NCBI GenBank assembly: GCA_026770705.1
Contig: JANJGN010000210.1
Span: 434,001 to 498,000 of the forward strand
Source of the DNA: Isurus oxyrinchus
Lineage: Eukaryota
Direction: 5' to 3'
DNA: 64,000 nucleotides
Shown here: positions 1-26,046 of the stretch, in pieces
Layout: the number at the start of each line of letters is the position of its first letter
Numbering within the stretch: the stretch's first letter is position 1
The notes under the pieces: generated by a model
What the model saw: the letters and a program-made list of their open reading frames with translations, nothing else
Database searches by the model: none
Told to the model about the DNA's origin: nothing
Translations under genes and position numbers: made by a program

Positions 1-801
1 TGGTGCAGGAGCTGAGAAGCTGGAGCATGTTGGTTGTCTCTTGAAAGATGAATTGCGGGTCATTGAAATCCAGGCCAGTGAAATATGCCTTACCCGTAAT
101 CTGCACGTAGAGGAAATGTCCGACGTTGGTGACCCACAGGAGGAGAAAGCTGAGGGAGATGGCGAAGAGCAGGACAATGGACCTTTTATGGTTGTCCATC
201 TCTGGATCTCTGTCACTCTCGGCTCCCTGGAGCCTCCTGCGAGCTCTGCTGGCCGCTAAGATGCGCCTTACTGTCAGTGCATTGAACAGCAGAATGAGTA
301 GGAACGGGAGGAAGGGGGTTAAGATGCGGTCAAGCCAGTCGTAGGCCTGCCAGATGGGCAATGTGTAATAGGTAGACTTGATGTTGCAGAATCAGGGCAC
401 ACTGTCCAGAATATACAAGGGCTGGTAGCTGAAGTAGAAAGAGACGTTCTTGACACAGCTCAGGGCACTGACTAGTCCTATAAACAGTGATGCAGTTTTC
501 TCAGTGCAGTATCTGGCCTTCAGGCTCTGACAGCAGATGGCCACAAAACGGTCGATGGTGAAGATGACCGTCAGCCAGACTGAGCCATCTCGTGTGGCAT
601 AGACAAGCACGATGCTAACAGCACATCCAGGGGTGGTGGAGAGGACACTCTCACGAAAGTAGATGCCACTGATCCGGTTGAATGTGACAGCGGTGATGAT
701 TACCAGGAAATGTGTCACCACTATCACCACCAGGTAATAGGTGATGCATTGGGAGAGCACGCACCGGCCACGGGATAAGATTATGATCGCCACCATGTTG
801 A
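1..801 (-). pseudogene. GPR139-like class A GPCR, main coding exon, premature stop; runs off the window edge
   Basis: Acceptor ccctcacag| at 803/802, then VNMVAIIILSRGRC...SVWLTVIFTIDRFVAICC (DRF motif)...YCTEKTA. TGA at 392-394 (VP*FC, probably Trp originally). The frame continues open: YDWLDRILTPFLPFLLILLFNALTVRRIL...DPEMDNHKRSIVLLFAISLSFLLLW...LLSSCT. Confidence 0.8.
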
Positions 802-861
802 CTGTGAGGGAGGAAAAGAGAGATATGTTACCAAGCGAACTCCATACACCAGCTGCTGGTG

Positions 862-3973: not shown

Positions 3974-4355
3974 CACTGTGTATCTCCATGTCTCTGCAAT
4001 CCCACGATGTGCAGGATTTTGCACAGCTCTCTCCGTGTTCTGTATCACTGTGTGTCTGTAATCCCACCATGTTCAGGTTTTTGTACAGCTCTCTCCGTGC
4101 TCTGTATCACTGTGAAATCCCACCATGTTAAATTTTTGTACAGCGCCCTCCCGTGCTCTGTACCACTGTATGTCTGTAATCCCACCATGTTCAGGTTTTT
4201 GTACAGCTCTCTCCGTGCTCTGTATCACTGTGTGCCTCTAATCCCACCATGTTAAATTGTTGCACAGCGCCCTCCGTGCTCTGTATCACTGTGTGTCTGT
4301 GATCTCACCATGTTCAGGTTTTTGTACGGCTCTTTCCGTGCTCTGTATCACTGTG
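3974..4355 (-). repeat. Tandem array of six 23-spacer RSS (~56-62 bp unit)
   Basis: Minus-strand CACAGTG heptamers at 4349-4355, 4287-4293, 4226-4232, 4108-4114, 4046-4052, a degenerate one at 4164-4170 and an orphan at 3974-3980. Perfect ACAAAAACC nonamers at 4317-4325, 4194-4202, 4076-4084, each exactly 23 bp from its heptamer. Confidence 0.92.
4317..4355 (-). promoter_or_regulatory. 23-RSS of the supporting V-delta
   Basis: CACAGTG-atacagagcacggaaagagccgt(23)-ACAAAAACC directly after YYCALSRRR. Confidence 0.95.
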
Positions 4356-4661
4356 CTCTGCGCCGACTCAGTGCACAATAATACACAACGGAGTCGCTTA
4401 GTTGTAGTTTGGAGATATTTAACCGGCTGATTTTCTCGGCAGAATCGATAGAAGCAGAAATTCTCTCCCCGGCAGCATTTTCTTTATTCTCCTCTCCTGA
4501 AGTGTGTCTCTGAAGCAGGTATTCCGGAGCCTGTCCTGGGGACTGACGGTACCAGTGTACTGTGTACTGACAGATGCTTGAATATTCACAGCTTAAAGTA
4601 ACGGTGTCACCGGCAGCAGAGGTTTGTAAAGGTGGATTCTGGAATATCAGGAGACTGGAAC
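4356..4661 (-). CDS. TCR-delta V segment, leaderless 'supporting' V-delta of the NAR-TCR type
   Basis: Acceptor acccttcag| (phase 1); SSLLIFQNPP...TVTLSC EYSSICQY TVHWYRQSPGQAPEYLL...LQLSDSVVYYCALS. Canonical Cys/Trp/Cys plus a non-canonical CDR1 Cys, a 23-RSS, and no recognisable hydrophobic leader exon upstream. Confidence 0.9.
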
Positions 4662-7270: not shown

Positions 7271-7639
7271 TGACTGAGGGCTCTCTTTGGGTTACAGGAA
7301 GTTGCTCAATTGGTTCGGAGTTGGTCAATCTTAAGGCTACCAGAAGAAAATTGAATCCAGGAATTACTTTGAGGGGTTTCAAAGTGAGAAGAGTGCAAAA
7401 ATTGTTGCATCCATGGCACACATCATCTGTAACGTCATAATACGAGGCAATGCAGGCTGTCACGACTTCATCTCTTCTCATAGGATAAACCATTTAACTC
7501 AGAAAGCTGCCTGACGAAACTTTGTTCACTTCCTTCAAGGCATGTAGATGTTTTCTCAATTATGAATCTAAAACTTTACACAGCATCCAGACTGGAGTCC
7601 AGTGCAGTCCTTCCCACACACAATACTTCTCCCAATAGC

Positions 7640-8215
7640 TTTGTAATACCGAGGAGTACTGATTCATCAGCTGAGGTGGCAGTTCGTGCATAGGTGGTAA
7701 CCAGCAGGAGGTTTCCTTCCTATCATTGGGCTGATACCATGAGACATCCTGCCATGGGAGTCAATGTTGAGGGCTCCAAGGGCAACTCCCTGCTGACTGC
7801 ATATAACCTCGCCACCATTTCTAGGACTATCATGCTGGTGGCCCAGGACATACACAGAGATAGTGATGGTGCTAGATAAGACACTGCCTCTAAGTTATGA
7901 TTCCGTGAGTTTGACTCTGCCAGGTTGTTGCTTGACAAATATTTGGGAAAGCTCTCCCAGTTTTAGCACATACCTCCAGATGTTAGTAAGGAGGACACTG
8001 CAGGATGGACAGGCCTAGGTTTGCCATTGTCATTTGCGAAGCCTAGGTCGATTGCAAGTGGTGTGGTCCATGGATTATTCTTTTTTTTAGACTTAGCAGC
8101 CATTTGATTCAAATAAGTGGCTTGCTCTGTCATCATTTTACAAAGCACTGAAGAGTAAACTACAATTCTTTGTGTCTGAAGTTTTATGTAGGTTAGACCA
8201 GGTAAGAACAGCAAA
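7640..8215 (-). mobile_element. Old LINE fragment carried in each duplicated block (paralogs ~13690-14270, ~16870-17610)
   Basis: Shared motifs ctgattcatcagctg, aatgttgaggactcccagg and gacatacacagggatagtga recur in all three blocks. Confidence 0.6.
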
Positions 8216-8480
8216 TTTCCTTCGATTAAGTAGACTAGGGCGCTGGGCGGCTCGCAACAATCGGCAACAGTTTCATGATCACTATACTACCAACAGCTTT
8301 TAACTCCTGGTGCTTGAATGCCACCAGCTGCTGCAGTGGGGTTTGAACCAGTATTAACACACAGAGGATTGACAGGGCATATGGGTTACTAGTCTAATGA
8401 CATTACCACGAGGCCACCCTTCCCCATGGCGATTATTTGCCTGGATTCTTTACAACATGTCACGGTTTGGAGTCACTTAC

Positions 8481-8825
8481 CAGCTGTGACAGTCACCTCT
8501 GTCCCGGATCCGTCTGCATAACCATCTTTCCAAACGGAACCACATCCATATTTGTACTGAGCTTTACAGTAATAGGTGGCCGTGTCTTCAACGCTCAGAT
8601 CCCGAATTTCCAGCGAAAAATTATTTACTGCTTTATTTATCGACACAACAAATCTCCCTTCGCTGGGGATCCGCTTCCACTCAGTGCCTGTCTGGGTTTT
8701 TCTGAAGAAATGTCCATCCTGTAAACGATGAGAATTACCATGGAATACACAGGTAATGATGAGGGACTGACACTCCTTTCTGGTCACCGCTACCGGGGTC
8801 TGTGTCACTGACTGACTGAAAGAGC
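8481..8825 (-). CDS. Germline-joined NAR-TCR-like V(D)J exon A (345 bp, phase 1-1)
   Basis: Acceptor ctgtttaatttccag|; SFSQSVTQTPVAVTRKECQSLIITC...TATYYCKAQYKYGCGSVWKDGYADGSGTEVTVTA G|gtaagt. No RSS and no stops. Confidence 0.93.
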
Positions 8826-8973
8826 CTGGAAATTAAACAGAGAGAGTTTAATGGGCCATCAGATCCGAAGTACAAAACGCGGCGCAAACGCCAGACAGTG
8901 TCTGTAATTGAGAAGGACTCCGGCAGCTTTAGGTAAAATGCACACAACGTCGATTAGTTAGATTGGTTGCCAC

Positions 8974-9007
8974 GGAGTATACAGGGCAAAACAAGCTAAA
9001 TTCCCAT
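8974..9007 (-). pseudogene. Dead leader exon of joined exon A
   Basis: ATG GGA ATT TAG: in-frame stop at 8996-8998. Internal deletion relative to leader 26004-26046 and a weakened donor (gtggca). Confidence 0.8.
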
Positions 9008-9061
9008 TCTTCTGCTTCCCGGAGCTGATAGTTTGTACAACGGGGAGCAGGAGATTGCGGC

Positions 9062-9562
9062 AATAAAAGCAGAAAGTACTGGAAAAACTCAGCAAGTCTG
9101 GCAGCCTCTGTGGAGAGAGCAACAGCGTTAACGTTTCCAGTCGCTGTGGAGTGGTGTTGTTTTCAGACTAGTAGCCCAGGGACGCAGGCCAATATTCTGG
9201 GGTCCCGGGTTCGAGTTTAGCCAAGGCAGATGGTGGAATTTGAATTGAATCAACATCCGGAATCAAAAGTCTAATGATGACCATAAAACCATTGTCGATT
9301 GTTGTAAAAACCCATCAGGTTAACTTATGCCTTTTAAGGAAGGAAATCTGCCAATCTTATCGGGTCTGCCCTACATATGACTCCAGACGCACAGCAATGT
9401 GGTTGTCTCTGAAATGCCCGGATAGGCAATAAATGCTGGCCTTGGCAGTAGCGCCCACATCCAAAGATTAAAATAAAAGATGTTGCCAGAACTGCTGAGG
9501 ATTTTCCAGCATTTTCTGTTTTTATTTCCGGTTTCTAGCATCCGCAGTATTTTGTTTTTATG
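9062..9562. mobile_element. SINE-like element nested in Penelope-terminus-derived inverted fragments, inserted into the former promoter of exon A
   Basis: ggttcgag B-box-like motif at ~9209 and a repeat body to ~9480. Flanks 9062-9145 and 9490-9560 resemble PLE termini in opposite orientations. The promoter motif ggagcaggagactgcag of the paralogs is split by the insert. Confidence 0.65.
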
Positions 9563-10875
9563 TAGGAGACTGCAGCTCTGAACTGCTCATGGAGACTGCA
9601 ACTCAGAGCTGGACTGAAATATTTTAGACTGTACAGTTCATTTGCCGTGGACTGTGTCCCTCGGATGATTGATGAGCCGCCCCATTTCCATCTCTCCGCT
9701 TGTGTATTGCCTGAATGAGTGACAGGTTTAAAAACGGAACCAGCGGTTTCATGTTGCTTCTTTGGGTCTGGAAGCCTGATGTGAAGTCCCCTCTCCCATT
9801 TGTCTGATGTACAGTTGCTGGCAGGATGGGACGAGGGAAGTGGAATGGTTTTCCTTAGGAAAGTCTGCCTTCCTCTTTCTCCCATAATAATGAAATTGCA
9901 GGTGCGTCCATGTGCTTTTAATAAGAGGTAATGTTTGAGGGTGGGATGTGGGAGAATCTCTCTGTCTCCAATATTGTCCTAACTGTAGTTAAAAGCAGAC
10001 AAAATCTGGAAAAACCCTGGATATCTGGCAGCATCTAGCGCGGGTGAAACAGAGTTAACGTTTCGAGTCCCCATGACTGCTTCAAAGCTGCCTCTGCCGG
10101 AAATTGTTAAACATCTCCCTGAACTGGCTGGTGAGACTTCATTTGACTGCTTGATCAAAGGGAAGAAGCCTTATACCCGCCTCAGACAAGCAACTGAGGA
10201 TCAAGTTGCAATATGAGGTAGTCCAGTGACTTCCCAATGTTCAGGCAGAAAGAATCAACTCTCCATATCATTTAAACAAAAGCTTGTTGCACTCCTTCCA
10301 TTATGATTTGCATTTGAACTGATCTATCCAGTAAACTATGGTTGATTTCCAGGTCCGGATTACTTACAGCTTCCAGTTGCAATTAAATAACACGAAGAAA
10401 CACTTAGAAGGGCAGTAGAAATGCAGAAACACGGTTTTTTTAATTTTATTTAAAGATCACAGTCACTGCCTTATGAAAGCTTTCATGTGGATTAGTTGTC
10501 CCTGATCCAACAACACTGTTAAAATATAGCTCGTGAACAGTACCGGAGCAAAATCTGGAACTCCCTCCCTAACAGCACTGTGGGTGTACCTACACCACAT
10601 AGAATGCAGCGGTTCTGGAAGGCAGCTCACCTTCTCAAGGGAAACTAGGGATGGGCAATAAATGCTGGCCCAGCCAGTGAAGCCCACATCCAGTCAATGA
10701 GAAAAAAAAAACTATCTGCTCCAACATTTCCCTGTGGCAACAAGTTTCAAATCCTGGCGTGTCTTTGTTTAAATTTACCTTTCTTAATGCCTTTATTTTT
10801 TTGTTAGTGAGGATCATACATTGACGGCCCATTCCTCTGGACTCGCCCACAAATAAATTTGTGCTCCACATCCAC

Positions 10876-12845
10876 CCATAAGACCATAAGACATAGGAGC
10901 AGAAATTAGGCCATTCGGCCCAATGAATCTGCTCCGCCATTCAATCATGGCTGATAAGTTTCTCAACCCCATTCTCCCGCCTTCTCCGCGTAACATATGA
11001 CCTCTTACCATCAAGAACCTATCTATCTCGGTCTTAAATACACTCAATGACTTGCCTCCACAGCCTTCTGTGGCAATGAATTCCATAGATTCACCACTCT
11101 CTGGCTAAAGAAGTTTCTCCTCATCTCTTGTTCTAAAAGGTCTTCCCTTTACTCTGACGCTCTGCCCTCGGGTCCTAGTCTCTCCTACTAATGGAAGCAT
11201 CTTCCCCCTGTCCACTCTATCCAGGCCTTTCAGTATTCTGTTAGTTTCAATCAGATCCCCACTCATCCTTCTAAACTTCATCGAGTATAGAACCAGAGTC
11301 CTCAAACGTTCCTCATATGTTAAGCCTTTCATTCCTGGGATCATTCCAGTGAAACTCTTCTGGATCCTCTCCAGGCCCAGCACATCCTTCCTGAGATACG
11401 GGGCCCAAAATTGCTCACAATATTCTAAATGTGGTCTGACCAGAGCCTTATAAAGCCTCAGCAGCACATCCCTGCTTTTATATTCTAGTCCTCTTGAAAT
11501 AAATGCCAACATTGCATTTGGCTTCCTAACTACTGACTCTGCACTTTAGCCTTAAGAGAATCCTGTACTAGGACTCCCAAGTCCTTTTGCACTCCAGATT
11601 TCTGTATTCTCTCCTCATTTAGAAAATAGTCTATGCCTCTAATCTTCCTACCAAAGTGCATGACCTTACACTTCCCCACATTGTAATCCATCTGCCACTT
11701 CTTTGCCCATTCTCCTAACCTGTGCAAATCCGTATGCAGCCTCCCCGCCTCCTTAATACTACCTGTCCCTCCACCTAACTTTGTATCATTTGCAAACTTC
11801 GCCAGAATGCCCTCAGTTCTTTCATCTAGATCATTAATGTATAAAGTGAAAAGTTGTGGTCCCAACCTGACCCCTGCGGAACTCCACTAAACTCCGGCCA
11901 TCATCCTGAGAAGGACCCCTTTAAGCCCACTCTTTGCCTCCTGCCAGACGGCCAATCTTCTTTCCATGCTAGTACCTTGCCTCTAACACCATGGGCTCTT
12001 ATCTTACTGAGCAGCCTCCTGTGCGGCACCTTGTCAAAGCCCTTCTGGAAGTCCAAGTAGATAACATCCATTGGCTCTCCTTTGTCTAACCTACTCGTTA
12101 CCTCCTCAAAGAATTCTAACAGATTTGTCAGGTATGACCTCCCCTTGATGAAACCAGGCTGACTTTGCCCTAATTTACCATGCACTTCCAAGTATTCTGA
12201 AATCTCATCCTTAATAATGGTCTCTAAAATCTTACCAACGACTGAGGTCAGGCTAATCGGCCAGTAATTTCCCGTCTTTTGCCTCAGTCCTTCTTAAACA
12301 GGGGGGTTACATTAGCGATTTTCCGGTCCTCTGGAACCCTCCCTGACTCCAGTGGTTCGTGAAAGATCACCACTAACGCCTCCACTATCTCTTCAGCTAT
12401 CTCCTTCAGAACTCTGGGGTGTAATTCATCTGCTCCAGGTTATTTGTCCACCTTCAGACCTTTCCGTTTTCCTAGCACCTTCTCCTTGGTAATGGCCACC
12501 ATACTCACCTCTGCACACCCCCCCGACTTTCTTGAACTAGGGGGATGTTACTCGTGTTTTCCACCATGAAGACTGATGCAACGTACGTATTCCGTTCCTC
12601 TGCCATGTCTTTGTTCCCCAATATTACTTCTCCAACGTCATTTTCCAGGGCCCAATGTCCATTTTTGCCACTTTCTTACCCTTTATATATCTAAAAAAAA
12701 ACCTCTTGCAATCTTGTTTTATATTACTGGCTAGTTTACCCTCATATTTAATCTTCTCCCTCCTTATTTCTTTTTCAGTTGTCCTCTGTTGGTCTTTGTA
12801 GCCTTCCCAATCCCTTGGTTTCCCACTGCTCACCCCAGTGAACAC
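10876..12845 (-). mobile_element. CR1 LINE, 5'-truncated
   Basis: ORF pieces DVIYLDFQKGFDKVPH, GPQLFTLYINDL...KFANDTKLGG, LYKALVRPHLEYCEQFWAPYLRKD; (CTTATGGT)-type tail at 10876-10895. Confidence 0.92.
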
Positions 12846-14318
12846 GTTCATTATTTAGAAGATTTCTCTGAATTCTCCTCGCGTTTCTCTGTTTTCTAGA
12901 GAAAAGAAACCAGGCCTGTTCAGCCTTTCCAGACAGATGTCGATTTATTTTCCAAAAAGTGGAAGAAATCAAAGAAGGTGACATAAGAAATAGGAGCTGC
13001 CGCCACCTTTCAAATCTGCTCCTCTGTTCAAGAATATAGTGGCTGATCTGCGTCCTGAATATCACAATCACGCACTGTCTCCATATCCCTTGATTCTTTC
13101 AGAGTCCAAACATCTATGAACACTGCCCATCTTTGATTAGATGCCATGAGACCTCATGGCGTCTGGAGTCAATGTTGAGGACTCCCAGGGGCAACACCCT
13201 GCTGAGTGTATATCACCGTGCAGCTGCCTCTGGGACTGTCCTGCTGGTGGCAAAGGACATACACAGGGACACTCACTTTTGAGTATCCACAGCTCTCTCA
13301 GGTATAGAATGTCACGGATTCAAAATAATATTTTGACCGAAGACAAATCTCCTCATCTCAGTTCTAATGGCCGACTTCATATTCTAAACTCTGACACCTG
13401 GAGAAACACCAACCCCAGAAGCTGCCCTGTTAGGCCCCTTAAGAATACTTCATGTTCCAATGATATCAGCTGTAATTTCTTCAAGCTCGAGGAAATCTAT
13501 GCTTTGACTACGTAACTTCTCCTCATAGGACAATCCGTTTGGCTCTGGTATCAGTACGATGAACGTTGTTCACTTGCACCAAAGCATGTAGATCCTTTCT
13601 GAAGAATGAGCCTCCAAGTTTACACAGCATCCCAGACTGGAGCCCATTGCAGTCATTGCCACACTGAATGCTTCCTCCAATTAATGTTCAATACGGAGGA
13701 AAACTGATTCATCAGCTGGTGGGTCGATGGTAATCAGCAGGAGGTTTCCTTGCCCATCTTTGATTAGTTGCCATGAGACCTCATGGTGTCTGGAGCCGAT
13801 GTTGAGGACCCCCAGGGGCAACACCCTGCTGAGTGTATATCACCTTGCAGCTACCTCTGGGACTGTCCTGCTGGTGGCACAGGACATACACAGGGACAGT
13901 GATGGTGGTGCCTAAGACATTGTCAAAAGGCTATGATTCTGTGAGCATGACTCTTGTCAGTGTGTTGCCAGTGACTAGGCCATCATTTCAGGGAGCATTT
14001 AAGAGTAAACCACATTGTTTTGTGTCTGGAGTCGCATGCGGGTTAGACTAGGTTTAAACTGAATATTTCCATCACTAAAGGACATTCGTGAATCAGATAG
14101 CTTCCAGCAATGATTTCATGATCACTAGTTTAAATGCCAGTTGTTTATATTATTTGATTTTTAATTCCACCAGTTGCTGGGATTTGAAGCCGATTTCCCA
14201 GTTCATTTGCCTTGCCCTCTGGATTACGAGTCTAATGACATTACAACTAGACCACTCCCTCTCCAATGTGAACATTAACCTGGATACTCTGTAATACATG
14301 GTGGTTGGTGTCACTTAC

Positions 14319-14666
14319 CGTCAGTGACAGTCAACACCGTCCCTGATCCGAGTTCATAAACATCTTTCGAAACGGTGCTCCCACATCTATATCTGTACTG
14401 AGCTTTACAGAAATAGGTGGCGGTGTCTTCAACTCTCAAATCTCGAATTTCCAACGACAATGTCTTTTTTTCTTTATTCACCGACACAACAAATCTCCCT
14501 CCGCTGGAGATCCACTCCCGCTCTGTCCCGGTCTGGGTTTTTCTGAAGAAACGCCCGCCTTCTAAACTTTGAGAATTACCAGATAAAGCACAGGTGATGG
14601 TGAGAGACTGACACTCCTTCCTGGTCACAGCTGCCGGGGTCTGTGTCACTGACTGACTCAAAGAGC
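14319..14666 (-). CDS. Germline-joined NAR-TCR-like V(D)J exon B (348 bp, phase 1-1)
   Basis: Acceptor ctgtttattttccag|; SLSQSVTQTPAAVTRKECQSLTITC...TATYFCKAQYRYRCGSTVSKDVYELGSGTVLTVTD G|gtaagt. Confidence 0.93.
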
Positions 14667-14813
14667 CTGGAAAATAAACAGAGAGAGTTTAATGGACATT
14701 CAGAGCCGAAACACAGAACGGGCTTAAACCCCAGACAGTGTCTGTAATTGGGATGGACTCCGGCAGCTTTATATTAAATCCATACAATGTCTGTTTGTTT
14801 GACCAGTGCTCAC

Positions 14814-14856
14814 GGGGTAAAAAAACACAAAGGGTGAAATCAAGGAGGGTTCGCAT
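14814..14856 (-). CDS. Leader exon of exon B, frame still open, function doubtful
   Basis: MRTLLDFTLCVFLP+C|gtgagc, 43 bp like the functional leader. Asp in the hydrophobic core; upstream octamer (ctttgcag, 14974-14981) and TATA mutated. Confidence 0.55.
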
Positions 14857-17663
14857 CGTTCTGCTGTTTGGAGTTGGTGGTTTATTTGACATGGAGCAGG
14901 AGACTGCAGACCGAACCTGCTCTTGGAGACTGGGCCTCAGAGCTGGATTGAAATACTTTAGAGGGTAGAGTTGCTTTGCAGAGGGCGGTGTCCCACGAGC
15001 CACGCTGTATCCATCTCTCTGGTTGTGTGTTGTGTGAATAAGTTACAGATTTAAAAACGGAACCTGCAGTTTCATGTTGCTTCATTGGGCCTGTGAGCCT
15101 GAGGTGAAGTCCCCTCTCCTATTTACCTGATGTACAGTGCCCGGCGGGGTGGGTGAAGGGAGGTAGGGTTGTTTCCATTAGTGAAGTGTTCCGCCCTCAT
15201 TCTCCCAAAACAATGAGCTTGTAGCTCCATCCATGTGTTTGTAGTGAGAGCTACTTCATGAGGATGGGATGTGGGAGAATCCCTCTTTCCTCAATATTAT
15301 TCTAACTGTCACGAGTATCAGAAAATGATGGAAACCTCATTAGTTCTGGCAGCATCTATGGAGAGTGAAACAAAATTAAAGTTTCGAGTCCATATGACGC
15401 TTCTTCGGAGTTGACTGTGCTGGGGATTATTAAACATCTCTCTGAACTGTCTGGTGGGACTTCGGTTGAACGTCTTATCCAAGGGAAGGAACCTTATACC
15501 CGCCTTAGTCCAGCAACTGAAAACCTGGTTGAAATAAAAGACAGCCAAGTGATTTTGCCAAAACTGAGGCAGAAGTACATAATGACCGGAAAGAATAACG
15601 TGTCCACATCATTGAAAGAAATGCTTGCTGCACTCCTTCCTCTGTGATTTGCATTTGAAATAATGCTTCCAGTAAACAATGTTTGATATCCTAGTCTGGA
15701 TAATTCAGAGTTTCCAGTTGCAGTGTTAGAACTTGAAGCCACACTCAGATGGACAGTTGAAATGGAGGCGGACACTGTGTTTGGGAATTGTTCAAAATAT
15801 CACACTCACTACCTTGTGAAACCTGGTCACTGTGTATAAACTGCACCAGGTCTAACAACACGTTCTGTTGAAATAAACCTCGTGAAGCAGCCGCGGTCAA
15901 ATGCTCCTGGAAACTGACAGGGACGAGGACATGGGTCTGCTCAATAAACCAGATAGGTGCGCCAAGGGCTGAAAAAGGTCAAAAAAACGACTTTAGGAGC
16001 ACCGAACTTCAAACTAATTTGGTCCACTGTACGTCACACAAACATGGCCGATCGTCCGACACTCAAATGTGGTCGATTGCTGAATGGACCTTTGAGTAGG
16101 GCCGGATGGGCTACCGCTGATCCCCAATGTGCCATCAAAGATATCAACCTCATCTCATTGACCGAAAAAGAAAATGAAGATCTGACAAGACCTCCTTGCT
16201 TCATAAACAAGTTTTGTAGATTAAATATCATCCATTTTCCTTCTGATTTTTCCGAATTCTCCTCGGGGTTCTGTGTTTTCCAGAGGGAAGAGGCCCCGCC
16301 TGCTCACCCTCTCCCGAGAGATGTCGATTGTTACTTATTTCTTTTCTCAAAAGCTGAATAAATCATAGCAGAGAACATAAGAAATAGAAGCTGGAGCCAC
16401 CATAACACATTTCAAACCTACTCTGCCATTCAACAATTTCCTGGCTGATCTCCTTCTTCAAAATCACATTCCCACACTTTCCCCATATCCCTTGATTCTA
16501 TCAGAGTCCAAACATTTATCGAACACTGTCTTGAATCCACTCACCACTGAGTGTAATCTGAAACTGTGACCCCTAGTTACAGACTGGACAGTCTGGAGAA
16601 ACACCAATCCAGAATCTGCCTGTCAAGAATATTTTACATTCCAATGATATCAGCTGTTATTTCTCTAAACTCTCAGGAATATATGCTTTGACTACTTAAT
16701 CTCTTCTCCTAGGACACTCCCTTTAACTCAGGAAGCAGTCTGCCGAGTCTTTGTTCGCTTCCTTCAAAGCATGTAGTTCCTTTCTTAATACTGAGTGCAA
16801 AGCTTTACACAGCATGCTGACTGGAGTCCATTACAATCCTTGCCGCCCTCAATGCTTCTTCCAATTGATGCTCAATAAGGGGGAGGACTGATTCATCAGC
16901 TGAACTAGAGATAGATGGTCATCAGCGGGAGGTTTCCTTGCCTATCTTTAACCTGATGCCAGGAGACTTCATGGGGCATGGATTCAATGTTGAGGACTCC
17001 CAGGGGCAACTCGCTGCAGACTGCATATCAGCGCGCCGCTACCTCTGGTCTGTCTTGTCCGTGGCACAGGGCATACACAGGGATAGTGAAGACATTGTCA
17101 GTACGTTAAGTTAAGTGAGTATGACTATGTCAGGCTGTTGCTTGATAAACCTCCCAATTTTGGCACATGCCTCCAGAGTTACGAGGACATTGCAGGTTCG
17201 ACAGGGCAGGGTTTAGCCACGGTCATATTGGGTACCTGTGTCGATGGCAGATGCTATGCCAAGTGGTGGGTCCAGGTTTCATTCCTTTTTATTTCAGGCT
17301 TCGCAGCGATTTCATTCATCTGAGTGACTAGGCCACCATTTCAAGCAGCATTAAAGAGTAATCCACATTGCTTTGTGTCTGGAGTCGCATGTACGTTAGA
17401 CCAGGTTCAAACGGAAGATATCATTTCCTAAAGGGCATTGGTGAATCAGACATCTTGCAGCAATGGTTTTCTGATCACTTGTTTATATTATTAGATTTTT
17501 AATTCCATGCGTTGCTGCTGGTGGGATTTGAAGTAAGTTTCTCAGCTCATGGGCCTTGGCCTCTGGATTACGAGTCCAATGACATTACAACTAGACCACC
17601 CCCTCCCCAATGTGATCATTAACCTGGATAGACAGTAATACATGGCGGTTTGGTGTCACTTAC

Positions 17664-17999
17664 CGGCAGTGACGGTCAACAACGTCCCAGGTCCGTCTTC
17701 ATAAGCATCTTTCGAAACGGTGCTCCAACAATTATATCTGTACTGAGATCTACAGTAATAGGTGGCGGTGTCTTCAACTCTCAAATCTCGAATTTCCAGC
17801 GAAAAGGTTTTTTCTGTTTTATTCACCGACACAACAAATCTCTCCCACTCCCATTCTGTCCCGCTCTGGGGTTGTCTGAAGAAATGTCCGCTCACTAAAC
17901 TATGAGAATTACCAGAGAAAACACAGGTGATGGTGAGAGACTGACACTCCTTCCTGGTCACCGCTGCCGGGGTCTGTGTCACTGAGTGACTGAAATGGC
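17664..17999 (-). CDS. Germline-joined NAR-TCR-like V(D)J exon C (336 bp, phase 1-1)
   Basis: Acceptor ctgtttaatttccag|; HFSHSVTQTPAAVTRKECQSLTITC...TATYYCRSQYRYNCWSTVSKDAYEDGPGTLLTVTA G|gtaagt. 12-bp in-frame deletion in the HV2 region. Confidence 0.93.
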
Positions 18000-18145: not shown

Positions 18146-18190
18146 CAGGGGTAAACAGACACACAAGGTGAAAACAAGGAGGACTCCCTT
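18146..18190 (-). pseudogene. Dead leader exon of joined exon C
   Basis: ATG>AAG at 18188-18190; donor cct|gtgagt changed to ccctgagt (GT lost); octamer changed to ctttgcaa (18308-18315). Confidence 0.85.
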
Positions 18191-19264
18191 CGTTCTGCTG
18201 CCTGGAGCTGAGGGTTTATATTACGGGAAGCTGGAGACTGCAGCCCTGAACTGCTCTGGGATACCGGACCTCAGAGCTGGACTGAAATACTTTAGGAGCT
18301 AGAGTTTCTTTGCAAAGGGCGGTGTCCCGCGGAGCATTGACGGGCCACACGATTCCCATCTCTCTGGGTGATTTCTCTGTGATTAAGTGACAGGTTTAAA
18401 AAGGGAACTTACAGTTTCATGTTGTTTCATTGGGCCTGTAAGCCTGATGTGAAGCCCCCTCTCCCATTTCTCTGATGTACAATGGCCTGCATAATGGGGC
18501 AAGGGAGGTGGAGTTGTTTCGGTTAGTGAAGTCTACCTCCTTCATTCTCCCACAGTAATGTGCTGGCCGGTCTGTCCATGTGTGTTTGGCAAATGGTATT
18601 TTATGAGAATGGGGTGTGGGAAAATTCCTCCTTCTCCAATATTATTCTAACTGTCATAAAAAAAAACAGAAAATGCTGGAAAGAGCTCGTCAAGTCTGGC
18701 AGCATCTGTGAAGAGTGAAACAGAATTAACGTTTCGAGTTTGTATGACTCTTCTTCAGAGCTACCTGTGCCGGAAATTATGAAACATCTCCCTGAACTGG
18801 CTGGTGGGTCTTCAGTTGAAAGTCTGTTCCAAGGGAACGAGCTTTATACCCGCCTTAGTCCAGCAGCTGAGGACCAGATAACAATGTGAGACAGTCCAGT
18901 GACTTTTCCAATATTCAGGCGGAAGTACAGAAATACCACAAAGAATAAACTCTCCACTTCATTGAAACAAATGCTTGCTGCAGACCTTCCCCTGTGACTT
19001 GCAATTAAAATGATGTTTCCAGAAAGTAATGTTTGATTTCCAGGTCTTGATTATTCAGTTTCCAGTTTTAGTGTTAAAACTTGAAGCCACACTCAGAGGG
19101 ACAGTTGAAATGGGGGCGGACACTGTGTTTGGGACTTGTTGAAAGTATCACACTCACTACTTTAGTGAAATCTGTTAGTTATGTTTAAACTGTCCTGGAT
19201 CTAACAACACGTTCTATTTAAGTGAAACTTGTGAACCGGCCGCAGTCAAATGCTCCTGGAAACT

Positions 19265-21531
19265 CAGAACAAAAACACAATTACCTGGAAAAACTCAGCA
19301 GGTCTGGCAGCATCGGCGGAGAAGAAAAGAGTTGACGTTTCGAGTCCTCATGACCCTTCGACAGAACTTGATTTCGAGTCCAAGAAAGAGTTGAATTATA
19401 AGCTGGTTTAAGGTGTGTGGTCAGTGACAGTCCTGGAAACAATGGCTTGATGGCTGAGCGTCAACTCGCAGACACTTCCTCCTACCTCTCCCTGGACCAT
19501 GACCCCACCACTGAACATCATGCCATTGTTCCCAGGACTGTCACTGACCTCATCTCCTCTGGGGATCTCCCTCCCACAGCTTCCAACCTGATAGTCGCCC
19601 AACCTCGGACGGCCCGCTTCTATCTCCTACCCAAAATCCACAAACAGAACTGCCCCGGTAGACCGATCGTCTCAGCTTGCTCCTGCCCCACAGAACTCAT
19701 TTCTCGTTATCTTGACTCCCTTCTCTCTCCCCTTGTCCAGTCCCTTCCCACCTACATCCGTGATTCCTCTGACACCTTACGTCACATCAACAATTTCCAG
19801 TTCCCTGGCTCCAACCACTTCCTCTTCACCATGGACGTCCAATCCCTCTACACCTCCATCCCCCCCCCAGGATGGTCTGAGGGCCCTTAGCTTCTTCCTC
19901 GAACAGAGGCCCGAACAATCCCCATCCACCACTACACTCCTCCGTCTGGCTGAACTTGTTCTCACGTTGAACAATTTCTCCTTCAACTCCTCTCACTTTC
20001 TCCAAATAAAAGGTGTGGCTATGGGTACCCGCATGGGCCCCAGCTATGCCTGTCTCTTTATGGGGTATGTGGAACATTCCTTGTTGCAGTCCTACTCCGG
20101 CCCCCTTCCACAACTTTTTCTCCGGTGCATCGATGATTACTTCGGTGCCGCTTCATGCTCTCGTCGGGACTTGGAAAAATTTATTAATTTTGCTTCCAAT
20201 CTCCACCCCTCCATCATTTTCACGTGGTCCATCTCTGACACTTCCCTCCCCTTCCTTGACCTCTCTGTCTCAATCACTGGTGATAGACTGTCCACCAATA
20301 TCCATTACAAACCCACCGACTCCCACAGCTACCTTGACTACAGCTCCTCACACCCCGCTTCCTGTAAGGACTCCATCCCATTCTCCCAGTTCCTTCGCCT
20401 TCGTCGCATCTGTTCCGATGATGCTACCTTCAAAAACGGTTCCTCTGACATGTCCTCCTTCTTCCTTAACCGAGGTTTTCCACCGACGGTCGTTGACAGG
20501 GCCCTCAACCGTGTCCGGCCCATCTCCCGCACATCCGCCCTCACGCCTTCTCCTCCCTCCCAGAAACATGATAGGGTCCCCCTTGTCCTCACTTATCACC
20601 CCACCAGCCTCCGCATTCAAAGGATCATCCTCCGCCATTTCCGCCAAGTCCAGCATGATGCCACCACCAAACACATCTTCCCTTCAACCCCCTTATCGGC
20701 ATTCCATAGGGATCGCTCCCTCCAGGACACCCTGGTCCACTCCTCCATCACCCCCTACTCCTCAACCCCCTCCTATGGCACCACCCCATGCCCACGCAAA
20801 AGATGTAACACCTGCCCCTTCACTTCCTCTCTCCTCACCGTCCAAGGGCCCAAACGCTCCTTTCAAGTGAAGCAGCATTTCACTTGCATTTCCCCCAACT
20901 TAGTCTACTGCATTCGTTGCTCCCAATGTGGTCTCCTCTACATTGGAGAGACCAAACGTAAACTGGGCGACCGCTTTGCAGAATACCTGCAGTCTGTCCG
21001 CAAGAATGACCCAAACCTCCCTGTCGCTTGCCATTTTAACACTCCACCCTGCTCTCTTGCCCACATGTCTGTCCTTGGCTTACTGCATTGTTCCAGTGAA
21101 GCCCAACGCAAACTGGAGGAACAGCACCTCATCTTCCGACTAGGCACCTTACAGCCTTCCGGTCTGAATATTGAATTCAATAACTTTAGGTCGTGAGCTC
21201 CCTCCCCCATCGCCACCCCCTTTCTGTTTTCCCCCCTTTTCCCCCTTTTTTTTCCCTATAAATTTTATAGATTTTTCTTTTCCCACCTATTTCCATTATT
21301 TTTAAATATTTTAAAATCTTTTATGCTCCCCCCACCCCCAGTAGAGCTGTACCTTGAGTGCCCTATCATCCATTCTTAATTAGCACATTCGTTTAGATAA
21401 TATCACCAACTTTAACTTTAACACCTATGTGTTCTTTTGTACCATTGTCGCTGACATCTTTTGATGATCTGCTTCTATCACTGCTTGTTTGTCTACACAA
21501 GCACCTGTCTCTCTCTATCTCTCCGCCCCCC

Positions 21532-21562
<31 letters not shown>

Positions 21563-21754
21563 ACACAGCTTAAACCAGCTTATATTTCAACTCTTTCTTG
21601 GACTCGAAATCAAGTTCTGTCAAAGGGTCATGAGGACTCGAAACGTCAACTCTTTTCTTCTCCGCCGATGCTGCCAGACCTGCTGAGTTTTTCCAGGTAA
21701 TTCTGTTTTTGTTTTGGATTTCCAGCATCCGCAGTTTTCTTTGTTTTTATTTTT
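19265..21754 (+). mobile_element. Penelope-like retroelement (RT + GIY-YIG), 5'-truncated, with an inverted copy of its 3' terminus at the 5' end
   Basis: FYLLPKIHK..PGRPIVS, TMDVQSLYT, GVAMGTRMGPSYACLFM, CIDD, LVYCIRCSQCGLLYIGETKR. One frameshift in the poly-C at ~19860. 19265-19418 is the reverse complement of ~21560-21715. TSD TGCTCCTGGAAACT at 19251-19264 and 21755-21768. Confidence 0.95.
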
Positions 21755-24711: not shown

Positions 24712-24769
24712 CGGCTGTGACAGTCACCACTGTCCCGGATCCATCCACATAATCATCTTTATAACTCAC
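24712..24769 (-). CDS. NAR-TCR-like J segment (unrearranged)
   Basis: VSYKDDYVDGSGTVVTVTA G|gtaagt; matches the 3' ends of the joined exons. Confidence 0.93.
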
Positions 24770-24808
24770 CACAGTGACACCGCTCTCAATCTCCCTGGTA
24801 CAACAACC
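24770..24808 (-). promoter_or_regulatory. 23-RSS of J
   Basis: Plus strand CACAGTG 24770-24776, 23 bp, ACAACAACC 24800-24808. Confidence 0.9.
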
Positions 24809-25124: not shown

Positions 25125-25200
25125 AGTATTTGTTAAGGTCTCTCCCACTGTGATTTCCCCAGTCACCACCCACACAGTATTACAAGTCAGCATGAAATCC
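25125..25200 (-). other. D segment (25153-25172, TGGGTGGTGACTGGGGAAAT) flanked by 12/12 RSS
   Basis: 3' RSS: CACAGTG (25146-25152), 12 bp, ACAAATACT (25125-25133). 5' RSS: CACAGTA (25173-25179), 12 bp, ATGAAATCC (25192-25200). Frames WVVTGE / GW*LGK / GGDWGN. Confidence 0.88.
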
Positions 25201-25527: not shown

Positions 25528-25565
25528 AGTTTTTGTATCGCGCGAAGGCGAAGCCCATCACTGTG
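25528..25565 (-). promoter_or_regulatory. 22-spacer RSS of the NAR-TCR-like V
   Basis: CACAGTG (25559-25565), 22 bp, ACAAAAACT (25528-25536). Confidence 0.92.
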
Positions 25566-25854
25566 TATGTGTAGTATCTGTACTGAGCTTTACAGTAATA
25601 GGTGGCGGTGTCTTCAACTCTCAGATCTCGAATTTCCAGCGAAAATGTGTTTTCTGCATGATTCACCGACACAATAAACCTCCCCCCGCTGGAGATCCGC
25701 TTCCACTCTGTCCCGGTCTGGGTTTCTTTGAAGAAATGTCCCGTTCGGAAATAATGCCACGAAGCACCGGAGAAAACACAGGTGATGGTGAGAGACTGAC
25801 ACTCCTTCCTGGTCACCGCTGCCGGGGTCTGTGTCACTGACTGACTGAAAGAGC
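25566..25854 (-). CDS. Unrearranged IgNAR-like (NAR-TCR) V segment
   Basis: SFSQSVTQTPAAVTRKECQSLTITCVFSG...GHFFKETQTGTEWKRISSGGRFIVSVN..TFSLEIRDLRVEDTATYYCKAQYRYYT. VNAR-type short FR2/CDR2 region, extra FR1 Cys, RSS follows. Confidence 0.93.
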
Positions 25855-26003: not shown

Positions 26004-26046
26004 AGGGGAAACAGACACACAGGGTGAAAACAAAGAGGATTCCCAT
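26004..26046 (-). CDS. Leader exon of the rearranging V
   Basis: MGILFVFTLCVCFP+T|gtgagt, phase 1, 149-bp intron to the V acceptor. Confidence 0.9.

What the first reader, a model, noticed from the sequence alone, without database searches (positions are those of the whole stretch)
8481..17999. One germline DNA-level joining event, then tandem triplication
Seen: the junctions share sequence absent from the germline V end and J start: CAGTACAAATATGGATGTGGTTCCGTTTGGAAAGAT (A), CAGTACAGATATAGATGTGGGAGCACCGTTTCGAAAGAT (B), CAGTACAGATATAATTGTTGGAGCACCGTTTCGAAAGAT (C). They also share a GNS CDR1 one residue shorter than the free V. Leader introns, promoter remnants and J 3' flanks are retained. Established: germline-joined Ig genes in sharks are attributed to RAG activity in germ cells, whereas marsupial TCR-mu Vj lacks the leader intron (retroposition). 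Inference: a single RAG-type joint in a TCR-associated cassette was fixed and amplified; B and C look closer to each other than to A.
Basis: partly seen in the sequence, partly recalled or inferred. Interest (0 to 1): 0.7.

Follow-up and report, generated by a model that had tools for sequence, protein, structure and literature searches.

The report
Pre-joined extra domains in shark TCR
In mackerel sharks a T-cell-receptor segment that is normally cut and joined afresh in each lymphocyte is inherited already joined, likely from one ancient event, and sits here in three tandem copies that are predicted to be spliced in as extra fixed domains of an unusually long receptor.

Summary
Confirmed and extended. 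The window holds a shark NAR-TCR cassette (minus strand): rearranging V-D-J, three V(D)J-joined exons (C, B, A), then a supporting V-delta. The joints are inherited: the same CDR3s occur in white-shark and basking-shark gene models and in DNA runs of a second species. One origin is well supported: A and B/C junctions match far beyond simulated independent joints, and all copies share a private CDR1 and a flank insertion absent beside free J segments. The assembly holds 28 such joints; other cassettes are C/B or C/A crossover chimeras, so C-B-A looks parental. New point: leaders are dead in nearly all copies (here A and C), yet exons stay open with intact splice sites; in the leader-dead A clade about 9 disabling events were expected and at most 1 was seen (omega 0.57). 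Best reading: the exons are spliced behind the somatic VDJ as extra invariant V domains, a shark parallel of marsupial TCR-mu Vj. No RNA support was obtained. This scan noted a broken joined NAR-TCR copy on other DNA before; I found no paper on it, but two key papers were unavailable.

The parts
26004..26046 (-). Intact leader exon of the rearranging NAR-TCR V (V0)
   Evidence: ATG, open, GT donor
25566..25854 (-). Rearranging NAR-TCR V exon (V0), open, a-b loop Cys, Phe in place of the WYR Trp
25528..25565 (-). V0 RSS, perfect heptamer, 22-nt spacer
25125..25200 (-). D0 (25172-25153) with 12-spacer RSS on both sides (5' nonamer weak)
24712..24808 (-). J0 (24769-24712) with 23-spacer RSS and GT donor
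18148..18190 (-). Dead leader of C (ATG to AAG; GT donor lost in this copy)
17664..17999 (-). Germline-joined exon C, open, 12-nt in-frame deletion, junction 17733-17713
14814..14856 (-). Leader of B, the only joined copy with ATG, open frame and GT donor (carries an Asp in the hydrophobic core)
14319..14666 (-). Germline-joined exon B, open, junction 14388-14368
9062..9564 (.). Repeat-derived insertion between the A promoter region and its leader, shared by the leader-dead A clade
8965..9007 (-). Dead leader of A (stop at codon 4, later indels, weakened donor)
8481..8825 (-). Germline-joined exon A, open, junction 8547-8530
7620..8433 (.). Joined-specific insertion beginning about 48 nt after the J donor; homologues follow B and C and the other joined copies
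4356..4661 (-). Supporting TCR-delta V, open, CDR1 Cys, followed by a 23-spacer RSS at 4355 and tandem RSS copies down to about 3976

Best explanation
The three exons are inherited copies of what is most likely one germ-cell V(D)J joint in a duplicated NAR-TCR V-D-J unit, and they are predicted to be spliced as extra invariant V domains between the somatically rearranged NAR V domain and the supporting V-delta. Steps: (1, inferred) the promoter-L-V-D-J unit of one cassette duplicated in tandem; (2, inheritance shown, RAG inferred) the downstream unit was V(D)J-joined in the germline before the basking-shark and lamnid lineages split; (3, shown as shared characters, order inferred) it was copied in tandem to A, then B and C, and unequal crossovers produced the shorter C/B and C/A arrays in other cassettes; (4, shown) leaders were lost repeatedly while frames and splice sites were kept; (5, inferred, no RNA) a T cell that rearranges V0-D0-J0 and the supporting V would make L-V0DJ0-[C-B-A, or a subset]-Vdelta(DJ)-Cdelta, four to six extracellular Ig domains instead of three; (6, speculative) the CDR3 Cys of each joined domain would take the role of the supporting V's CDR1 Cys as partner of the a-b loop Cys of the domain above it. 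I put steps 1-4 at about 0.85 and step 5 at about 0.6.
For: Inherited: the A-type CDR3 is in Carcharodon models XP_041031384.1 (twice) and XP_041031398.1, and the BC-type CDR3 YRYRCGSTVSKDAYEDGSG is identical in Carcharodon XP_041031388.1 and Cetorhinus XP_078393265.1; contigs of a second organism bridge the A junction in 2 studies (X5, X15). Single origin: junction score 24 against a null maximum of 14.5 in 4561 simulations; J plus flank tree puts 21 joined rows on one side against 72 free J, 100/100; the flank insertion gave 28 hits over 150 nt, 26 beside joined J and 2 partial hits elsewhere; V-only protein tree groups 17 joined domains of three species, 82/85. Order: sliding identity shows the C26:37.91 Mb unit is C-like 5' (89-96%) and B-like 3' (93-95%), and A-only cassettes are C-like in the distal promoter (84-93%) and A-like from the exon on. 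Internal-exon use: intact leaders in 3 of 19 open joined V (all three are B) against 54 of 66 open free or VD-joined V (copies are not independent); leader loss by several different lesions; in the clade that shares the codon-4 stop, 6 distinct exons are open with intact splice sites where about 9 disabling events are expected (P(at most 1) 0.00025-0.007), omega 0.57, p=0.024; all exons are phase 1-1 like J0 and the supporting V; the upstream V and its leader are intact in all 6 C26/window cassettes checked that carry an open joined exon.
Against: No transcript shows the splice. B, C and the C26:37.91 Mb copy give omega 1.1, not different from 1. 5 of 17 full-length A-type exons carry a stop, the C242 BC copy is frameshifted, and three truncated A copies share one deletion that I found only after the simulation. 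One cassette has an open upstream VD-J but a stop in its A exon. In the DNA tree of V plus leader intron, A and BC are separate clades and their union is only not rejected (p-AU 0.44). No significant D remnant (P=0.12). NCBI models draw leader-joined exon-supporting V, not the longer chain, for P0004-P0006.
Confidence: 0.6

Rival explanations
1. Same single germline joint, but the joined exon serves as the N-terminal domain of an invariant NAR-TCR (like IgM1gj): it uses B's own leader, or the V0 leader spliced past the unrearranged V0, giving L-VJ-Vdelta-Cdelta.
For: B keeps ATG, frame and donor. NCBI models P0004-P0006 and P0050 have this shape. The BC CDR3 is identical in white and basking shark. 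Germline-joined shark Ig are expressed early in ontogeny (PMC2193156 abstract; PMC4279169 passages).
Against: 0 of 17 full-length A-type copies have a working leader, yet A is the clade with omega below 1. The leader in P0004 matches the free-V consensus, not the A-type leader remnant of the orthologous copy here, so that model probably borrowed the upstream leader. B's leader has an Asp in its core.
Confidence: 0.2
2. The joined exons are inherited relics that are skipped or never transcribed; open frames reflect slow decay, gene conversion or earlier function.
For: Omega about 1 for B/C; broken copies exist; dead leaders; extensive crossover between copies can blur the timing of leader loss.
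Against: About 9 disabling events expected after the shared leader stop, at most 1 seen; scaling the same rate to the B-C distance of 0.22 predicts about 7 events and none is seen (my arithmetic); frames are also open in white and basking shark models.
Confidence: 0.13
3. A and B/C come from two independent germline joints made in sister copies of one duplicated, still unjoined unit.
For: This genome shows at least six different V-D germline junctions, so germline joining recurs at these cassettes. A and BC junctions differ by 3 nt in length and form separate V clades. CDR1 and flank insertion could predate joining.
Against: 14 of 18 aligned junction letters, the CDR3 Cys and the J trimming point are shared; 0 of 4561 simulated joints came near. 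No unjoined V with this CDR1 or free J with this flank was found.
Confidence: 0.05
4. The joints are somatic rearrangements or assembly artefacts, or arose by retroposition of a lymphocyte mRNA.
For: Three near-identical copies of the whole cassette (98.8-99.0%) exist in the assembly, so some redundancy is likely artefactual or allelic.
Against: Joints are shared across species; copies differ by 19-25% in flanks; leader intron, promoter and J-proximal intron are all present, which a cDNA would lack.
Confidence: 0.02

Closest known systems
NAR-TCR (doubly rearranging TCR-delta of cartilaginous fish; Criscitiello 2006, not held; features read in PMC1845163, PMC5931798, PMC6795676 passages)
   Same: IgNAR-like V with a-b loop Cys and no WYR Trp, own D and J, followed by a supporting V-delta with CDR1 Cys and its own RSS.
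   Different: One to three germline-joined, mostly leaderless NAR-type V(D)J exons lie between the rearranging V-D-J and the supporting V; the passages read describe two V domains, both somatically rearranged.
Marsupial TCR-mu Vj (PMC7615758 part 1 of 4; PMC2275272 and PMC3457774 passages)
   Same: Order V-D-J then a pre-joined invariant V exon; PMC2275272 Fig. 10 proposes duplication of V-D-J followed by germ-cell RAG joining as one of two routes, which is the route seen here.
   Different: V is VNAR-like, not VH-like; the leader intron is kept (no retroposition); no C gene in the cassette; a rearranging supporting V-delta still follows; independent origin in sharks.
Germline-joined shark Ig genes: NS4 light chains, IgM1gj, VD-J and VDJ clusters (PMC2193156 abstract; PMC4279169 passages)
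   Same: Inherited coding joint with loss of RSS and intervening DNA, introns and flanks kept; VD-only joins co-occur in the same family.
   Different: It is in a TCR cassette, was amplified after joining, and mostly lost its leader rather than serving as a stand-alone expressed V.

Membership tests
NAR-TCR cassette | N-terminal V related to IgNAR V | tested here: met
   Best solved-structure matches of exon A are shark VNARs, E 1e-19; V-set by Pfam
NAR-TCR cassette | Cys in the a-b loop and no Trp in the WYRK motif | tested here: met
   KECQS and HFF/RFF in V0, A, B, C; feature read in PMC1845163
NAR-TCR cassette | Supporting TCR-delta V with CDR1 Cys and RSS downstream | tested here: met
   4661-4356, SICQY, perfect 23-RSS
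NAR-TCR cassette | Supporting V lacks a leader | tested here: inconclusive
   No match of the V0 leader probe near it; other leader types not searched
NAR-TCR cassette | NAR V carries its own leader | tested here: met
   Met for V0 and B; A and C leaders are dead, which is the variant feature
NAR-TCR cassette | Second rearrangement to D-delta/J-delta and splicing to C-delta | not tested
   Only linkage seen: a TCR-alpha-type C exon at C26:29.90 Mb among the cassettes; C-delta not located
RAG-type germline-joined antigen receptor genes | Joint inherited, not somatic | tested here: met
   Same CDR3 in Carcharodon and Cetorhinus models and in organism B DNA contigs
RAG-type germline-joined antigen receptor genes | Joint at coding ends with RSS and intervening DNA removed, modest trimming | tested here: met
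   21 nt kept from the Cys codon (free V ends 17-29 nt), J trimmed about 9 nt against J0, no RSS
RAG-type germline-joined antigen receptor genes | Leader intron and genomic flanks retained | tested here: met
RAG-type germline-joined antigen receptor genes | Recognisable D core | tested here: inconclusive
   Best match to 19 D segments P=0.12 for B, 0.54 for C, 0.90 for A
RAG-type germline-joined antigen receptor genes | P nucleotides from hairpin opening | not tested
   The donor V and J ends are unknown and the joint is old
TCR-mu (TRM) | V-D-J followed by a germline-joined V exon | tested here: met
TCR-mu (TRM) | VH-related V domains | tested here: not met
   VNAR-related
TCR-mu (TRM) | Vj lacks the leader intron | tested here: not met
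   Intron present in A, B, C; feature read in PMC2275272
TCR-mu (TRM) | Joined V followed directly by the cluster's own C gene | tested here: not met
   A supporting V with RSS follows instead
TCR-mu (TRM) | Joined exon spliced behind the somatic VDJ in mRNA | tested here: inconclusive
   Four RNA-labelled runs gave no informative contig

The most novel reading that the evidence does not exclude
Lamniform sharks build TCR-delta chains with four to six extracellular Ig domains by stacking germline-joined, leader-dead NAR V exons under the somatically rearranged NAR V; each added domain brings a CDR3 Cys on top and an a-b loop Cys below, forming a disulfide-linked extendable stalk whose length is set by unequal crossover. 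It is an intron-retaining, RAG-route parallel of marsupial TCR-mu Vj, and horn shark may have done the same independently.
Probability: 0.4. Interest if true: 0.82.

Novelty: new variant of a known kind. Interest (0 to 1): 0.66.

Why it matters
Germline joining in sharks is described for immunoglobulins; here it is shown for a T-cell-receptor cassette, old enough to be shared by basking and white sharks, and recurrent (one VDJ joint plus at least six VD junction types). If the exons are spliced in, they extend a TCR beyond the three-domain forms known from NAR-TCR and TCR-mu, and give a living example of the germ-cell-RAG route that was proposed as one of two origins for TCR-mu Vj. The prediction is testable with one RT-PCR.

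Tried and rejected
RNA: the run search listed no holder on record as RNA. Four runs guessed to be RNA (X16, X17, X18, X23) were laid on a compact sister cassette (L141): only X23 had a few short contigs on the supporting V and on a NAR V exon, one running unspliced into the intron, and no exon-exon joint among the rows shown; no verdict. The DNA lay was swamped by repeats; only 32 pieces were shown, the B junction is covered by one organism B contig that ends 2 bases into V (below the tool's 31-letter bridging rule), and C was not seen bridged. AlphaFold2 of P0003 without alignment failed (pLDDT 38) and was not used; no complex prediction was run, so the disulfide idea is untested. D assignment was not significant. 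My first leader count (last table) had a wrong pattern and was redone. A sequence look-up in earlier scan notes found nothing. Criscitiello 2006 and Ott 2021 were not held. Retroposition and somatic or assembly origin were rejected. V classification covered 123 V (2 more lacked a readable Cys) from the 150-151 best-scored of 519-757 candidates, so counts are lower bounds; the simulation left out the deletion-truncated A lineage, and one search left out one A copy whose flank is not homologous throughout.
Full report
What is there. The window is G000:C210:434001-498000 of a 5.0-Gb genome; the nearest named proteins are from Carcharodon and Cetorhinus, so the animal is a lamniform shark (inference). 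On the minus strand lie an intact leader and V (V0, 25854-25566, 22-spacer RSS), a D with two 12-spacer RSS, a J with a 23-spacer RSS, three V(D)J-joined exons C (17999-17664), B (14666-14319) and A (8825-8481), and a V-delta with a CDR1 Cys and a perfect RSS (4661-4356). The V domains have the a-b loop Cys and lack the WYR Trp, as given for NAR-TCR V in PMC1845163 (passages), and match VNAR structures best. A TCR-alpha-type C exon lies at C26:29.90 Mb among sister cassettes.

Two details differ: the leaders of A and C are dead, and the J flank is homologous to a free J flank for only about 48 nt before a joined-specific insertion.

The joints are inherited. A protein search returned Carcharodon models with the A-type CDR3 (P0003 twice, P0004) and Carcharodon and Cetorhinus models with the identical BC-type CDR3 (P0006, P0005, P0050). 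In DNA contigs of a second organism, record 18 of X5 covers 8507-8822 with 8 differences, and records 9, 10 and 17 of X15 and X5 span flank, J, junction and V of A-type paralogues. The best holder X1 may be the source sample and is not counted. That organism differs from this one by about 2.7% in flanks (20 of 741), roughly a tenth of the A-to-B/C distance, so the joint is far older than that split.

The family is larger than the window. Of 123 NAR-type V classified from about 0.96 Mb of fetched DNA, 26 are VDJ-joined (18 A-type, 8 BC-type), 28 are joined to D only, in at least six different junctions, and 69 are free. A DNA search added two truncated A copies, giving 28 VDJ joints. The window's whole cassette is present three times at 98.8-99.0% identity, so counts include alleles or redundant contigs.

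One joint. The A and BC junction regions align with one 3-nt gap at score 24; 4561 simulated independent joints from 33 V ends, 19 D and 28 J reached at most 14.5. The GNS-type CDR1 is confined to joined V. J plus flank separates 21 joined rows from 72 free J at 100/100, driven by an insertion whose long hits lie beside joined J in 26 of 28 cases. A V-only protein tree without the junction groups 17 joined domains of three species at 82/85, unstarred. Against this, the DNA tree of V plus intron leaves A and BC as separate clades, their union not rejected (p-AU 0.44), and no D core is significant. Retained leader introns exclude a cDNA route; RAG in germ cells is inferred by analogy with PMC2193156 (abstract) and PMC4279169 (passages).

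Order of copying. All joined units checked sit behind a V-D-J or VD-J unit with the same spacer, except one at C26:25.2 Mb with no V found upstream. The unit at C26:37.91 Mb is C-like up to its exon and B-like after; A-only cassettes are C-like in the distal promoter and A-like downstream. These are the products expected from unequal crossover within a C-B-A array, so the window likely keeps the parental arrangement. The C242 cassette with one BC unit and a different V0 and supporting V may be the pre-triplication form; it is broken here, while matching models in white and basking shark are open.

What the exons likely do. Leaders are intact in 3 of 19 open joined V, all three being B, against 54 of 66 open free or VD-joined V (copies are related, so the contrast is descriptive). 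They died by a codon-4 stop, ATG loss, donor loss or deletion. In the clade that shares the stop and an upstream insertion, six distinct exons are open with both splice sites; neutral simulation on the clade's own non-coding tree expects 4.1 stops, 3.9 frameshifts and 1.1 splice hits, with P(at most one event) 0.00025, or 0.007 at half the indel rate. One deletion event in this clade was found afterwards. Omega is 0.57 (p=0.024) for these six and 0.51 (p=0.0004) for nine A-type exons, but 1.1 for B, C and the chimera, and 0.88 for 19 free V. An exon without a leader that must stay in frame is most simply an internal exon. All are phase 1-1, matching the J0 donor and the supporting V acceptor, and the upstream V is intact where the joined exon is open. 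B and C fit a passenger or spacer whose frame matters more than its residues. Every joined CDR3 seen has a Cys; a role as partner for the a-b loop Cys of the domain above is my inference from the putative bridge named in PMC1845163. No RNA confirms any of this (no verdict).

Comparison. The cassette is a NAR-TCR member; the joined exons work like TCR-mu Vj in position (PMC7615758, part 1 of 4; PMC3457774 passages) but fail TRM membership on V type, leader intron and C gene. PMC2275272 (passages) proposes V-D-J duplication plus germ-cell joining as one route to Vj; this locus shows that route. Eight searches (listings) and passages of PMC12227049, PMC6795676 and PMC5931798 showed no report of germline-joined NAR-TCR V; Criscitiello 2006 and Ott 2021 were not held, and no supplements were read, so prior mention cannot be excluded. 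Earlier scan notes on other pieces of this genome record a broken joined copy and a partly joined cassette; they are not independent support.

Verdict. Real, inherited, most likely a single joint amplified in tandem; new variant of a known kind; interest 0.66, with the extra-domain reading at about 0.6 and the stacked-stalk reading at about 0.4.

Noticed in passing
G000 C26 29.8-38.7 Mb and C242 370-545 kb (L061-L131): 28 NAR-TCR V are germline-joined to D only, keeping the D 3' RSS, in at least six different junction types; one type matches a Carcharodon model (P0012) and another a Cetorhinus model (P0011). Germline joining recurs in this family.
   Followed up: partly
P0048 (Heterodontus francisci gene model): Three repeats of an identical J-containing junction, one in a full NAR V with a CDR1 Cys, precede a supporting V: possibly an independent tandem of joined exons, possibly a gene-model artefact; not in the lamniform joined clade.
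   Followed up: partly
window 3976-4355: The supporting V is followed by a tandem array of 23-spacer RSS copies (four scored, more degenerate); many sister cassettes have 1-6.
   Followed up: partly
window 19256-21725: A 2.5-kb retroelement-like insertion with inverted ends upstream of C; the C26:38.76 Mb copy of the cassette is shorter by about that length, so it is likely a recent insertion. Related copies at 30.0-31.7 kb and 43.0-45.0 kb.
   Followed up: partly
window 392-814, minus strand: Rhodopsin-family GPCR reading frame (7tm_1) next to the cassette; an earlier scan note calls such genes GPR139-like.
   Followed up: partly
window 39.4-40.7 kb and 51.9-61.9 kb: Long arrays of a roughly 54-nt diverged repeat unit; no Pfam zinc-finger match in the two frames tried; identity unknown.
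   Followed up: no
G000 C210, C151:1.07-1.09 Mb, C26:38.75-38.77 Mb: Three copies of the whole cassette at about 99% identity; the C26 copy keeps the GT donor of C's leader that the other two lack.
   Followed up: partly
P0005, P0050 (Cetorhinus): The supporting V behind the BC-type exon lacks the CDR1 Cys (SGLRQY).
   Followed up: no
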